Shown here: in pieces, positions 19,696 to 24,419 of the stretch | Position numbering within the stretch: the first letter of the stretch is position 1 | Layout: the number at the start of each line of letters is the position of its first letter | Source of the DNA: the human T2T-CHM13v2.0 reference genome, Homo sapiens | Length of the DNA: 64,000 nt | Reading direction: 5' to 3' (one strand) | NCBI RefSeq assembly: GCF_009914755.1 | Contig: NC_060933.1 | The notes under the pieces: model-generated | What the model saw: the letters and a program-made list of their open reading frames with translations, nothing else | The model's database searches: none | What the model was told of the DNA's origin: nothing | Program-made: the position numbers and the translations under genes

Positions 19696-22477
19696 ATGGC
19701 TCTGCTTCTGCTGAGCCTGGGGCTGAGCCTCATCGCAGCCCAGGAGTTCGATCCCCACACCGTTATGCAGAGGAACTACAACGTGGCCAGGGTGTGTCTG
19801 CGTTGGGGTCTGTGGGGAAGGGGCCAGGCTTCAAGGCACCTGTCTTCCCCCAGCCTGGGGTCTCTGACCTGTGACCAGGGCAACTGGTCCAAGGGGAGCC
19901 CACCTCTCCTCCCCAAGCTGTGACAGCAGCCTGGGAGAGCAGGGGTTACTCCGGGAGGGTCGGGTGGGAGAGGCCTGGGAGAGTGACTGGGGCCCTGAGA
20001 GGTTAGAGGGGGCCCTGGGAGGGCAGAGGGGAAAGCTGGAGAGTGGAGTGGCGGCCAGCAGGGAGATGGGGGCCCTAAGAGGACAGAGGGGTTCCTAGAA
20101 GTATAGGGGAGACCTAGGGAAAAGAGGGGGACTCAGTGGGAAAGGGTGGAGCGGGGGACCTTGAGAGGACAGAGGGGGACCTGGAGGGGCAGAGGAGAGA
20201 CCTGTGGGGCAGAGGGGGCCCTGGAAGGGCAGAGGGCATTCTGTGAGCAGAGGGGGGACCTTGGGATCAAAGGGGGGATCTGGGGACATAGGGGAGACCT
20301 GGGGGGCAGCGGGGGCCCTGGAAGGGCGGAGGGCATTCTGTGAGCAGAGGGGCGACCTTGGGGGTAAAGGGGGGATCTGGTGACGAGGGGAGACCTGGGG
20401 GCACTGGAAGGGCGGAGGGGTTCTGGTTGGGAGCCAGATGCTAAGGGGCCGGGCCCTGGGAGGGAAGACTGTGGGCGCTAAGCATCCCCAGGGCTGTCCC
20501 GCGGCCCCCCACCCACTGGAGCTCTTTGTCTTCAGGTTTCAGGGGTCTGGTATTCTATTTTCATGGCCTCAGATGACCTGAATCGGATTAAAGAAAATGG
20601 AGACCTGAGGGTCTTCGTCCGGAATATTGAACACTTGAAGAACGGCAGCCTAATATTTGATTTCGAATACATGTGCGTGTTGCCCATCTCAGCTGGCATC
20701 AGGAAGACCCATGCCCCTGCCACCCCAACGCATACTCTCACTCTTGCACACACACGCTCGCACACTCACTGACTTGCACTCTGGTGAGAGCCTGAGCCTG
20801 TGCGTGTGACCCTTGGGGGCAGGGTGAGGTGGGAGCAGGGACTTGGTCTGCCTGGCACTGTGCTCTTCCCTGAAACATAGAGATGAAATCGCCCCCTTCC
20901 AAGGCTGGGGTGAGGTTCGAGGAGATGAGGGTGTCCGGTGGGCTGCAGCAGGGCCCAGCCCAAGAACTTGGGGCTGTGGAATGAGGCCTGGGCATTGGGA
21001 GGGTGAGCCTGTGCCCTGGAGGAGGGGTGCTCTCTGCCATCGCACGTCCAGGGGGCTGGAGCTCCACTCCCGGCATCTTCCTGGCTGGCTTCCAGGGTGC
21101 AGGGGGAGTGTGTGGCTGTGGTCGTGGTCTGCGAGAAGACAGAGAAGAATGGGGAATACTCCATCAACTGTAAGTGGAAGCCAGGCTCCTCCTGGTCTCA
21201 CAGTCGGGGGTCTCCTTTCTCCAGGGCCTGGGCCATATTCTGGTGAGCACTGACTCTGGGGATTTTAGTTAAGCCCCTGACAGCTTGACCCTGAACTGGA
21301 GGGACCCATCCTGGCACCTACCCAGGGGGGCTCCTGGCCCAGGGGAAGCAGGGAGGCAGGTGTGTCATGCTGAGCTCTGGGGGGTGAGCCCACTGAGGGG
21401 CCACCAGGGTCTGCAAGCCAATGACAAGGAGGGAGGGGGCTGTGCCGCTGCTGCCCGCCCCCTGTGCAGGGGTCTCCGCTGGGTGAGCACCGTGGGCTCC
21501 TCCCCTCCCGCCTCAAAAGGCCACTTGACCCCCCATCCTCACTTGCGGCCACACAGCACGTGTCACAGGACCCTGAGGGTGGCGGGGCCAGGCCACGCTG
21601 AGCCATGTCTCCACGCAGATGAGGGCCAGAACACAGTGGCCGTCTCGGAGACTGACTACAGGCTGTTCATCACCTTCCACCTCCAGAACTTCAGGAACGG
21701 GACCGAGACCCACACGCTGGCGCTCTATGGTACCTCCGCTGTCCCCCTCTGACCCCCTCGGGGACCCCACCTCCTCTGAAGTCTGGCCCAACCCTGGGCG
21801 GAGGAGGGTCTCGCAGTGGCCCTGGGGTTTGGAGAGGTGGTTCCCGTTGGCTATTCCTTCCCACAGACACACCGTTAGGGTGCTGGGTGCTTCAATCTGT
21901 CACCTCCCATCTCACTTGGCACAAAGCCCCTCTCTGGTCAGGGCGTGACCCCCTGCCCAGCCTCAGCACTTCCTGAGCACCCCCAGCAAGGCCCAGCTTC
22001 ACACAGAACCAACTCTGTTCCCAGCACGGGTCCCATAGCTGGAACCCTCCTTCCTGAGCAGATTTGAAGAAACCTGCGAAAAGTACGGACTTGGCTCACA
22101 AAATATCATCGACTTGACCAACAAAGGTCAGCCCCACTGCTCCCGGACCAAGCGGGAGCCGGGACAGGGTGGGGATGGGAGGTGTGCCTGCGGGGTCCCT
22201 GTCCCTGCGCTGAGAGCCCCCTCTGTCCTTCCAGATCCCTGCTACTCCAAGCATTACAGGAGCCCGCCCAGGCCTCCCATGCGTGAGCTGCGACTCGGGA
22301 CGGGCAGGGGGCTGGATGGGGAGAGCTTGGGGCCAACGTCAGAGGCTGCGGGGTCCCACCCCAGGAGGTGCCCATCCCTCCCCCTGGTCTGGGAACCGAA
22401 CACAAGGTGCTTTGGTGAAAGATGCTGTGAAAAGCATCCTGGAGTCGGGGCAGTGATGGGGCCTTCCAGGGTGGTAA
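19696..22477 (+). CDS. LCN9: Epididymal-specific lipocalin-9. Exons 19696-19791, 20536-20672, 21096-21169, 21619-21729, 22025 (canonical) or 22070 (alternative)-22126, 22235-22282, 22470-22477
   Basis: Signal peptide MALLLLSLGLSLIAA; lipocalin motifs SGVWY (GxW), ETDY and LALY; GT-AG introns; exon sizes 96/137/74/111/102. With the 22070 acceptor the frame gives 176 aa ending PMRW*; the 22025 acceptor runs into TAG at 22036. Confidence 0.93.
20010..20420. repeat. G-rich degenerate tandem repeat in LCN9 intron 1
   Basis: Recurring gggggccctgga and gggagacctgggg units; the block at ~20215-20310 recurs at ~20310-20410. Confidence 0.75.
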
Positions 22478-22539
22478 GGTCTGAGCAGGAAGTGAGATGG
22501 GGCCCTGTGTGAGTCTCCAGGGGCTGATGTCACCATATG

Positions 22540-22900
22540 CGGGTGACTAGGACAACCAGGATTTACTTTCTCACAGCCTGGAGCCCGAGGTCTGAAACCC
22601 GAGGTCCGCAGGGCTGTGCTCCCTCCACCAGCTCCCGGGAAGGGTCCTTCCTGCCTCTTCCGGCTGCTGGGGGCTCCAGGCATCCCTGGCTTGTGGCTGT
22701 CACTCCAGCCTCTGCCTCTGTCTGTGTCTCCTCTTCTGTCTCTTCTAAGGACACTTGTCATTGGATTTCGGGCCCATCTTCATGCAGAATGATCTCCCGT
22801 CAAGACCTCAACTTCACACCTGCAAAGACCCTTTCCCATCAGATGCCCTTCACAGGCTCCAGGCACTAGGAAAGGAGCATGTCCTTTGAGGGACACCACT
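22540..22900. mobile_element. MLT1 (ERVL-MaLR) LTR fragment
   Basis: MLT1-like motifs tttctcacagcctggag, catccctggcttgtgg, taaggacacttgtcattggattt, cacctgcaaagaccct. Confidence 0.7.
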
Positions 22901-23312
22901 CAGGTCACCACAGGCTCCTTCTCCGAGCTGCCCCTCCCTTCTCAGACATGGTCCCAGCCCAGTAAAAACCCCCAGGGCCCCCTTCCCTTCCCAGAGCCTG
23001 AGCCTCCCAGAGATACGCCTCTGAAGGCACCTCTGCATTTCTGCACGAGGGTTCCTGAGGGTAAAGGAGTGGATGTACCTGTGGTGCGTGGTGGCCCCAA
23101 GATGCGGGTGAGATGAGATGGCAACCGGCAACCAAGGCCCTACCCCTCCCCTCTCCGCCCCTCCCCTCGCTGACCTTCCCCTCCCTGTCCCTCCCCTCTC
23201 TGCCCCTCCCCTCCTGTCCCCTCCCTGGGCTCAGCCACTGCCTTTGGGGGAAGATGATCAACAATGTCACAGCTGAGGCAGGTGCCTGCGCCCCCGCCTC
23301 CATGTTTTGGTG

Positions 23313-23318
23313 AATAAA
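23313..23318 (+). terminator. Candidate LCN9 poly(A) signal
   Basis: First AATAAA I could find downstream of the LCN9 stop, followed by GT-rich sequence. Confidence 0.4.
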
Positions 23319-24419
23319 AGGGAGGTACCAGCCAATCTGCGGTGACTTTGTGGGTTAAAAGTGATTGTTGGTTGGGCCTCTGTCAGAGATGTGAAAACGA
23401 CTGCATTTGTGTGATGCTCTCGAAATCACAAAACCGCAGAGGGGGACATGAGTCGGTGATTTCCAGAGGTTACAAATGGAAGGTAGGAATTCAGCCAGAA
23501 AGGGGCACCAGGAGGGGCCCTGGTGACGATGGAACGTCCTGCACTGTGACCCTGGCGGTGGACATGACCCTGCACGTGCAGCAAAAATGCGGCTCTGTCT
23601 GAGGAGCCGCTGGCCCTGCCCCCTGCCCGGGGGAGAACATTTTGCAGCCCGAGACCCAGAAGCGTCTGTGCTGGGGGCGTGCGCTGGGCGGCCCCAACTC
23701 TGGCGTCTGCGTGAGCTCTCCAAGGGGTCATCCTGTGGGTCACAGTCCCGGGTGCTCAGGAAGAACCTGTCCCCAGAGCCAGTGCCTGCTTGTAAAGGAG
23801 CTAAGTGGAGCTGTCTTAGGATGAGGGTCTGGATGCCACCCCCCACCCCACCTCCATTGGGAGCTCCAGGCTATAGGGTGAGGCTGGGTAGAGTTTTAGT
23901 GCCCGCTGTATGGGTGCCAGGCTTGGGGAAGGAGCAGCTCCATTGGGATGGGAGGGAGTGGGAGGCACCTGGCATTCCCATGGCTGCCCAGCTTCCGGCC
24001 CCTTGTTTGGATCTGGGCCCAGCCTACTGAGCTGCAGCGGGAACGCGAGAAGCTGCCCACTCGGCGGGGCCCGTTGGTGCACAAAGCTGGCCTCGGAGGA
24101 GCAGAGCCAAGGCTGCCAGAAAGGGGTGCTGGGAGGCCACTGCCCATTGGTGCAGGGGGAGCCTCTGGGCCCCAGAGGAGGCCTGGGCATGGGGGTAGAT
24201 GTGGACATAGGCAGAAGCCTTTAGCCCCACCCCAGAAGACAGCACAAAGGGGAGCTGAACCAGAGCTGAGTGTCCCCAGCACCCACCCCACCATCAGCTG
24301 CTCAGCACCAGGCTGGCCCTGGCCTCAGACTCCTGCAGCCTCAACACCAGGGGCCTCAGGTGGACAAAGGAACAGGGCAGTGGGCAGGGCATGAAAGAAC
24401 AACCAAGAGACCACCCTCA

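What the first reader, a model, noticed from the sequence alone, without database searches (positions are those of the whole stretch)
22025..22126. LCN9 has an in-frame TAG in its canonical exon 5, so it may be a hidden pseudogene
The strong acceptor (ctctgttcccag|22025) defines a 102-nt exon, the usual lipocalin exon 5 size, reading LY-A-R-V-P-STOP-LEPSFLSRFEETC, with TAG at 22036-22038 (probably CAG>TAG). This predicts a 143-aa truncation lacking the C-terminal helix and cysteine, with the stop 88 nt before the next junction (NMD-compatible). The 176-aa form that I recall as the annotated protein needs a weak purine-rich acceptor (ttgaag|22070) that deletes 15 codons, including the conserved SCR3 arginine.
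Basis: partly seen in the sequence, partly recalled or inferred. Interest (0 to 1): 0.8.

Follow-up and report, generated by a model that had tools for sequence, protein, structure and literature searches.

The report
Human LCN9 carries a disabling stop
The human lipocalin 9 gene has a stop codon where monkeys and a beaver have glutamine, so none of its possible transcripts can encode a complete lipocalin; this is an ordinary lineage-specific gene decay that reviews still count as a working gene.

Summary
With the 22025 acceptor, exon 5 is 102 nt. Read in the phase left by exon 4, it gives a TAG at 22036-38: a 143-aa product, with the stop 88 nt before the last junction.

The stop is derived. 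Six orthologue models include the whole exon. Five have Gln there (Trachypithecus, Cebus, Sapajus, Callithrix, Castor) and one has Glu (Apodemus). The rest of the human exon matches the four monkeys at 30-31 of 34 residues.

The RefSeq-selected transcript uses neither 22025 nor 22070 but an acceptor at 22062. This shifts the frame and stops at 22115-17, giving 157 aa. The remembered 176-aa form (22070, 15 codons deleted) is the older RefSeq/UniProt-type model.

All three forms lack conserved lipocalin parts: the SCR3 arginine, the long helix, strand I or the C-terminal cysteine.

The most likely reading is a loss-of-function locus in the manner of a unitary pseudogene. When the stop arose, whether it is fixed in humans, which junction is used and whether any protein is made could not be tested here. 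I found no paper stating this. Interest is modest.

The parts
19696..19791 (+). LCN9 coding exon 1 (start codon, signal peptide)
   Evidence: Open and conserved with orthologues
20536..20672 (+). Exon 2, holding the G-x-W lipocalin motif (SCR1)
   Evidence: W37 is invariant in 41 relatives. This exon alone matches Can f 6 and MUP chains at E 1e-10 and below
21096..21169 (+). Exon 3, holding Cys83, the disulfide partner
   Evidence: C83 present in 90% or more of the rows
21619..21729 (+). Exon 4; ends in phase 1; encodes strands F-H
22025..22126 (+). Ancestral (canonical) exon 5, 102 nt, used by the second RefSeq transcript
   Evidence: supplied annotation table
22027..22029 (+). CGG codon of the conserved SCR3 arginine (R141)
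   Evidence: R 74 + K 16 of 104
22036..22038 (+). In-frame TAG (codon 144); Gln in 5 and Glu in 1 of the 6 full-exon orthologue models
22045..22061 (+). Pyrimidine run of 11 followed by GAGCAG: the exonic acceptor for an exon start at 22062 (RefSeq-selected). It shifts the frame by one base
   Evidence: supplied annotation
22115..22117 (+). TGA that ends the 157-aa frameshifted form, 9 nt before the last junction
22068..22069 (+). AG of the weak in-frame acceptor (exon start 22070) behind the old 176-aa model
22235..23335 (+). Last exon. The TGC at 22240-42 is the conserved C-terminal cysteine (C176 of the intact orthologue), reached in frame only by the 22070 form
   Evidence: C in 73 of 90

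Best explanation
Human LCN9 is a MUP-clade epididymal lipocalin gene whose ancestral exon 5 took a single C-to-T change. The change turned a Gln codon into TAG at codon 144, just after barrel strand H.

Shown: the canonical splice form ends at 143 aa. The only other acceptors in the exon that the annotation or older records use give two forms. One is a frameshifted 157-aa product (22062, RefSeq-selected). The other is an in-frame product lacking 15 codons (22070, the old 176-aa model). Every form lacks conserved lipocalin elements.

Inferred: mRNA spliced at 22025 is degraded by nonsense-mediated decay, because its stop lies 88 nt before the last junction. The 22062 form escapes decay, because its stop lies 9 nt before the junction. 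That would make it the most visible transcript and would explain why it was selected. No form folds into a stable secreted ligand-binding barrel. On this reading the locus is a loss-of-function allele decaying like a unitary pseudogene, and this is tolerated because epididymal lipocalins are redundant.
For: Five of the six orthologue models with the whole exon have Gln and one has Glu at that codon. The human exon is otherwise identical to the four monkey models at 30-31 of 34 residues.

Pfam Lipocalin PF00061: intact orthologues cover profile positions 1-143 or 1-144 of 145 at 93-105 bits. The human 176-aa form scores 70.5 bits. The macaque counterpart of the frameshifted form covers only positions 1-110.

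Family conservation over 110 aligned rows: R141 is R or K in 90 of 104; F153 is F in 79 of 96; G161 is G in 76 of 99; C176 is C in 73 of 90. The intact Cebus model (pLDDT 88.5) places strand H at 131-140, the helix at 147-159 and strand I at 167-169. It matches MUP, Can f 6 and boar salivary lipocalin structures at a target-normalised TM-score of 0.9 or more. The human 176-aa model loses the long helix, and its pLDDT over residues 131-160 falls from 95-98 to 84-85.

Three protein searches found no ape model with the whole exon 5. Mouse Lcn9 knockout males are fertile (abstract and passages). In the passages seen, LCN9 is not among the lipocalins named as highly expressed in human caput; LCN8, LCN2 and LCN10 are.
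Against: RefSeq keeps the gene as protein-coding and selects a coding transcript. Exons 1-4 are intact, with good splice sites and no second lesion. AlphaFold still draws an eight-strand barrel for the 176-aa form at mean pLDDT 86, so a partly folded product is not excluded. Lineage-specific residue changes are too few to show relaxed constraint: human 4, Pan 3 outside a garbled stretch, and Pongo 3, over 172 columns. No RNA, protein, population or ape DNA data could be consulted. Fixation, timing, NMD and the absence of protein are therefore all inferred.
Confidence: 0.66

Rival explanations
1. A truncated product is the working human protein. It would be either the 157-aa form (all eight barrel strands plus an 18-residue basic tail from the shifted frame) or the 176-aa form lacking 15 residues, kept for a changed role.
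For: RefSeq selects the 22062 form. A macaque model (P0005, a cluster of 34 member sequences) has the same junction and a similar tail. The 22062 acceptor has the best pyrimidine tract in the exon, a run of 11, and its stop escapes the NMD rule. Exons 1-4 are intact. AlphaFold keeps the barrel in the 176-aa form.
Against: Both forms lack the SCR3 arginine, and the 157-aa form also lacks the helix, strand I and the disulfide cysteine, all conserved across the family. The Pfam match of the macaque counterpart stops at profile position 110 of 145. The macaque and other monkey models may be seeded from the human record, so they are not independent. Comparing the human tail with the macaque P0005 tail in the shifted frame, and human with the Mandrillus model P0003 in the old frame, I infer by hand about 3 differences that are silent only in the old frame and about 3 that are silent only in the shifted frame. 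The shifted frame therefore shows no sign of selection. This was inferred from proteins of two different monkeys, with no DNA. No paper found reports a human LCN9 protein.
Confidence: 0.17
2. The stop is a human polymorphism (or private to this assembly), and intact CAG alleles that encode a full lipocalin of about 190 aa still segregate. LCN9 would then be a polymorphic pseudogene rather than a fixed loss.
For: There is a single lesion in an otherwise perfect exon, as expected for a young mutation. Allele frequency could not be checked.
Against: The older 176-aa human model was built on earlier references and also skips these 15 codons. A stored human record from another assembly (P0001) is the same skipped form. 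That would be needless if those sequences had CAG. No human or ape protein with the whole exon was found in a 5.8-billion-protein collection. This is weak evidence, because clustering at 90% identity hides cluster members.
Confidence: 0.12
3. Ribosomes read through the TAG at a useful rate and make a full-length lipocalin from the canonical transcript.
For: The stop is followed by C (TAG-C). From general knowledge, not tested here, a C after the stop is among the leakier contexts. Everything downstream is intact and in frame.
Against: There is no known read-through signal here. Basal read-through is about a percent or less (general knowledge), and the transcript meets the NMD rule.
Confidence: 0.03

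Closest known systems
Human MUPP (the human MUP pseudogene at 9q32)
   Same: [quoted passage not shown] It is a single-copy gene disabled by one point change in an otherwise recognisable gene (passages: a G>A change at a splice donor).
   Different: MUPP is named and treated as a pseudogene. LCN9 is listed as protein-coding and counted among the 19 human lipocalin genes. The LCN9 lesion is a nonsense codon, and cryptic acceptors downstream allow truncated reading frames. Whether the LCN9 lesion is specific to humans is unknown.
Intact LCN9 orthologues (Cebus imitator P0009, Trachypithecus francoisi P0006; mouse Lcn9, 178 aa)
   Same: The human gene has the same exon structure. Exons 1-4 are near-identical, and exon 5 is identical at 30-31 of 34 residues.
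   Different: They have Gln where the human gene has a stop, and they cover the whole Pfam profile. In the model, the helix, strand I and the disulfide cysteine are all present.
MUP, Can f 6 and boar salivary lipocalin (PDB 3kff, 5x7y, 1gm6)
   Same: These are the best structural matches of the intact orthologue model: E about 2e-18, target-normalised TM-score 0.92-0.94, 38-39% identity. Human exon 2 alone finds them at E 1e-10 to 5e-7.
   Different: These are complete, folded, ligand-binding proteins. No human LCN9 reading frame encodes the full fold.
Old RefSeq/UniProt-type human LCN9, 176 aa (NP_001001676.1)
   Same: It equals the window translation through the 22070 acceptor at 176 of 176 residues (length and accession from the table).
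   Different: It needs a purine-rich acceptor with A at position -3, and no transcript in the supplied RefSeq table uses that acceptor. With the single last exon of that table, the frame would run on to 250 aa.

Membership tests
Lipocalin (Pfam PF00061; kernel lipocalins, MUP/LCN9 clade) | Profile match above the curated cut-off | tested here: met
   the human 176-aa record scores 70.5 bits against a cut-off of 23. Intact orthologues score 93-105 bits.
Lipocalin (Pfam PF00061; kernel lipocalins, MUP/LCN9 clade) | G-x-W motif (SCR1) at strand A | tested here: met
   Exon 2 encodes G35-V-W37. W37 is invariant and G35 is present in 90% or more of 41 relatives.
Lipocalin (Pfam PF00061; kernel lipocalins, MUP/LCN9 clade) | Conserved arginine (SCR3) after strand H, present in a product that continues into the rest of the fold | tested here: not met
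   The codon (22027-29) is read only in the 143-aa form, three codons before the stop. It is absent from the 157-aa and 176-aa forms.
Lipocalin (Pfam PF00061; kernel lipocalins, MUP/LCN9 clade) | C-terminal helix packed on the barrel, followed by strand I | tested here: not met
   In the intact model the helix is at 147-159 and strand I at 167-169. Both are absent from the 143-aa and 157-aa forms. In the 176-aa form, 8 of the 13 helix residues are deleted and no long helix is predicted.
Lipocalin (Pfam PF00061; kernel lipocalins, MUP/LCN9 clade) | Disulfide between the strand-D cysteine and the C-terminal cysteine | tested here: inconclusive
   Cys83 is present in all forms. The partner (TGC 22240-42) is in frame only in the 176-aa form. 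No bond was tested.
Unitary pseudogene | A disabling lesion in the ancestral reading frame relative to working orthologues | tested here: met
   A TAG where five of six full-exon orthologue models have Gln and one has Glu.
Unitary pseudogene | The lesion is fixed in the species | not testable with these tools
   No population or archaic data were available. The only indirect hints come from older models that skip the codon.
Unitary pseudogene | No functional product | not testable with these tools
   No RNA-seq or proteome data were available. Four paper searches found no report of a human LCN9 protein.
Unitary pseudogene | Relaxed constraint after the lesion | tested here: inconclusive
   Human-specific residue changes number 4 in 172 columns, against Pongo 3 and Pan 3 outside a garbled stretch. 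The counts are too small, and no codon data were available.
NMD substrate (50-55 nt rule; the rule is from general knowledge) | A stop more than about 55 nt upstream of the last exon junction | tested here: met
   The 22025 form has its stop 88 nt upstream. The 22062 form has it 9 nt upstream and so is not a substrate. Actual decay was not tested.

The most novel reading that the evidence does not exclude
The frameshifting 22062 junction is not noise. It would be a splice form shared by catarrhines that makes a barrel-only lipocalin without helix or disulfide and with a new basic tail. Once the old frame was closed by the TAG, this form would have become the sole human LCN9 product, with a function of its own. 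A second bold reading, also not excluded: the stop is specific to humans and, together with MUPP, marks a coordinated loss of the whole MUP/LCN9 clade in our lineage.
Probability: 0.08. Interest if true: 0.6.

Novelty: new member of a known kind. Interest (0 to 1): 0.33.

Why it matters
Reviews and family trees count LCN9 among the 19 working human lipocalin genes and use the 176-aa sequence. That sequence depends on a weak acceptor that the supplied RefSeq annotation no longer uses, and it lacks a conserved arginine and most of the helix.

If the locus is a loss-of-function gene, the human count of epididymal lipocalins drops by one. Mouse Lcn9 results would then not carry over to men. The same 15-codon skip also appears in models of other primates, which suggests that the human model has been copied into other genomes and can distort comparative work. 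The finding is useful housekeeping rather than a surprise: chemosensory and reproductive lipocalins are often lost in humans (MUPP).

Tried and rejected

I repeated it with the window range lengthened into intron 5. It found only Cebus, Sapajus and the human 176-aa record (3 hits among 5 candidates) and no ape form with the whole exon.

3. A search with the exon 5-6 region of the Trachypithecus protein returned 8 hits among 8 candidates. Among catarrhines, only Trachypithecus has the whole exon. This is weak evidence, because clusters at 90% identity hide their members.

4. I could not date the stop. No primate DNA is reachable with these tools. The Ensembl-type models of Pan, Pongo, Mandrillus, Piliocolobus and Saimiri all skip the 15 codons. 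I set them aside as evidence on the stop, because Saimiri skips them although Cebus, Sapajus and Callithrix have the whole exon.

5. A count of lineage-specific residue changes was too small to interpret. I dropped Pan residues 34-44 as a model artefact.

6. For splice strength I used only pyrimidine content, the -3 base and yTnAy branch-point motifs. No trained splice model was available. The single branch-point-like motif (A at 22001) serves 22025, and none lies within 12-50 nt upstream of 22062 or 22070.

7. Literature: seven searches were run and passages were read in PMC6381713, PMC8420045, PMC4487233, PMC10759339, PMC10506895, PMC12691349, PMC8476925, PMC11050150, PMC8312960 and PMC10836090. 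None mentions a stop codon, truncation or pseudogene status for human LCN9. Suzuki et al. 2004 (Gene 339:49), which first described these genes, is not held, so it may say something on this. No supplements were opened.

8. I rejected recoding of the TAG: there is no evidence for it in a human nuclear gene.

Full report
**The observation.**
The four upstream coding exons of LCN9 sum to 418 nt, so exon 4 ends on the first base of a codon. From the acceptor at 22025, exon 5 is 22025-22126 (102 nt). In that phase it reads Ala, Arg, Val, Pro and then TAG at 22036-22038. The product is 143 aa, and the stop ends 88 nt before the 22126 junction. All annotated donors begin with GT and all acceptors end in AG.

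**Other acceptors within the exon.**
- One search listed every AG from 21995 to 22125.
- Downstream of the stop, only the exon start at 22070 keeps the old frame. It has A at position -3 and a purine-rich approach.
- Its translation equals the stored human record P0001 at 176 of 176 residues.
- It also matches the 176-aa NP_001001676.1 listed in a 2019 family review (table passage).
- That acceptor follows a run of 11 pyrimidines and a CAG. It shifts the frame by one base, adds 18 unrelated residues and stops at TGA 22115-17, giving 157 aa.
- That stop is 9 nt before the last junction.
- The table's second transcript carries the 22025 exon. No listed transcript uses 22070.
- With the table's single last exon, the 22070 frame would run to 250 aa rather than 176.

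**Whether the stop is derived.**
- A search with exon 2 found primate LCN9 models and one rodent (beaver) model. Two further searches added a marmoset and a wood mouse.
- Six models include the whole exon 5. Trachypithecus, Cebus, Sapajus, Callithrix and Castor have Gln at the stop column, and Apodemus has Glu.
- Leaving out that column, the human exon matches the four monkeys at 30-31 of 34 residues.
- TAG is one transition from CAG. The site is not a CpG (context).
- So this is the orthologous exon in its ancestral frame with a single disabling change.
- Among unnamed family representatives, seven more have the whole exon, with N, E, D or Y at that column. The residue itself is free to vary, but a stop is not a substitution.

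**Models set aside.**
The models of Pan, Pongo, Mandrillus, Piliocolobus and Saimiri all skip the same 15 codons. Saimiri does so although its relatives Cebus, Sapajus and Callithrix have the whole exon. I take these as likely projections of the human 176-aa model and not as evidence on their DNA. A Macaca nemestrina model (P0005, a cluster of 34 members) has the 22062-type junction and a similar tail. It too may be seeded from the human record. No ape model with the whole exon turned up in three searches. That fits a stop older than humans, but it is weak evidence because clustering hides members. I cannot date the stop.

**What is lost.**
- The intact Cebus protein folds with mean pLDDT 88.5. 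Strands A-H lie at residues 38-140, a helix at 147-159 and strand I at 167-169.
- Its best structural matches are boar salivary lipocalin, mouse MUP-IV and dog Can f 6, at target-normalised TM-scores of 0.92-0.94.
- Over 110 aligned family members, four positions stand out:
  - R141 is R or K in 90 of 104.
  - F153 is F in 79 of 96.
  - G161 is G in 76 of 99.
  - C176 is C in 73 of 90.
- The 143-aa form ends three residues after R141 and lacks the helix, strand I and C176.
- The 157-aa form lacks R141 and everything after it.
- The 176-aa form lacks residues 140-154: the end of strand H, R141, F153 and 8 of the 13 helix residues.
- Pfam agrees:
  - Intact orthologues cover profile positions 1-143 or 1-144 of 145 at 93-105 bits.
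  - The human 176-aa form scores 70.5 bits.
  - The macaque frameshift form covers positions 1-110 only.
- The AlphaFold model of the 176-aa form keeps a barrel but has no long helix. Strand H is shorter, and confidence over 131-160 falls from 95-98 to 84-85.
- Because an alignment guided that model, the surviving barrel is not proof that the protein folds.

**Most likely mechanism.**
- Shown: a derived nonsense codon closes the ancestral frame, and every alternative frame is defective.
- Inferred: mRNA spliced at 22025 meets the rule for nonsense-mediated decay, and mRNA spliced at 22062 does not.
  - The 22062 form would then be the stable species, which would explain its selection by RefSeq.
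- The 22062 acceptor is made of the codons for a Pro-Ser-Phe-Leu-Ser-Arg stretch that the monkey models also encode. It is probably an old by-product of the coding sequence rather than a new signal.
- Loss should be tolerable:
  - Mouse Lcn9 knockout males are fertile, and an effect appears only on top of a four-gene deletion (abstract and passages).
  - A human-mouse comparison names LCN8, LCN2 and LCN10, but not LCN9, among the genes high in human caput (passages).
- I put this reading at about two in three.

**Rivals.**
- A truncated product may still work, about one in six.
  - For it: RefSeq's choice, the intact upstream exons and the strong 22062 acceptor.
  - Against it: the loss of conserved elements, and no sign of selection in the shifted tail.
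  - By hand, I compared the human and macaque (P0005) tails in the shifted frame, and human with the Mandrillus model (P0003) in the old frame.
  - From these I infer about three differences silent only in the old frame and about three silent only in the shifted frame. This comes from proteins of two different monkeys, not from DNA.
- The stop may be polymorphic, about one in eight. An independent human record and the older model both avoid the codon, which argues against this weakly.
- Read-through is unlikely.

**Comparison with what is known.**
- The nearest precedent is the human MUPP pseudogene: same clade, single copy, one point lesion.
- LCN9 differs in three ways:
  - It is still called protein-coding.
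  - Its lesion is a nonsense codon.
  - It has escape acceptors downstream.
- In seven searches and passages of ten papers I found no statement that human LCN9 has a stop, is truncated or is a pseudogene.
- Reviews list it as a 176-aa lipocalin.
- The founding paper on these genes is not held, and database record comments could not be read.
- RefSeq's own models imply that its curators know of the stop.
- I therefore class this as a new member of a known kind, of modest interest.

Noticed in passing
window 20153-20401 (also 19989-20031): A G-rich minisatellite in LCN9 intron 1, with units of about 20 nt nested in a 97-nt period, 2.5-12.7 copies. It is likely to vary in length between people.
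   Followed up: no
window 23143-23225: A 15-nt C-rich repeat (CCCCTCCCCTCTCTG, 5.5 copies) in the LCN9 3' UTR, inside a RefSeq 'enhancer' interval.
   Followed up: no
P0002, P0003, P0007, P0010, P0012; P0018, P0024, P0033, P0035: The 15-codon skip of the old human model recurs in models of five other primates and in four distant unnamed representatives. Saimiri shows it although three related genera have the whole exon. This looks like an annotation copied from human into other genomes.
   Followed up: partly
P0016, P0027, P0030, P0032; P0019, P0029: Several unnamed LCN9-like models leave the family alignment exactly at the exon 4/5 junction. Four start their tails with Gly, consistent with reading on into intron 4, and two have frameshift-type tails. 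The 3' half of this gene seems hard to model in many species.
   Followed up: no
P0012 (Pan troglodytes model), residues 34-44: The start of exon 2, including the G-x-W motif, is replaced by unrelated residues in this chimpanzee model. This could be a model artefact or a lesion in that assembly.
   Followed up: no
P0004 (107 aa, on a 1344-base contig): An open frame that reads through LCN9 exon 2 and its flanking intron sequence, with monkey-like residues. It looks like primate DNA inside a collection of predicted proteins. Its origin was not traced.
   Followed up: no
window 22235-22600: In the old frame, the last exon stays open for 92 codons past its start, so the 22070 form would give 250 aa. 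The 176-aa record therefore needs either a further splice near 22285 or is partial. P0001 is labelled 'partial'.
   Followed up: partly
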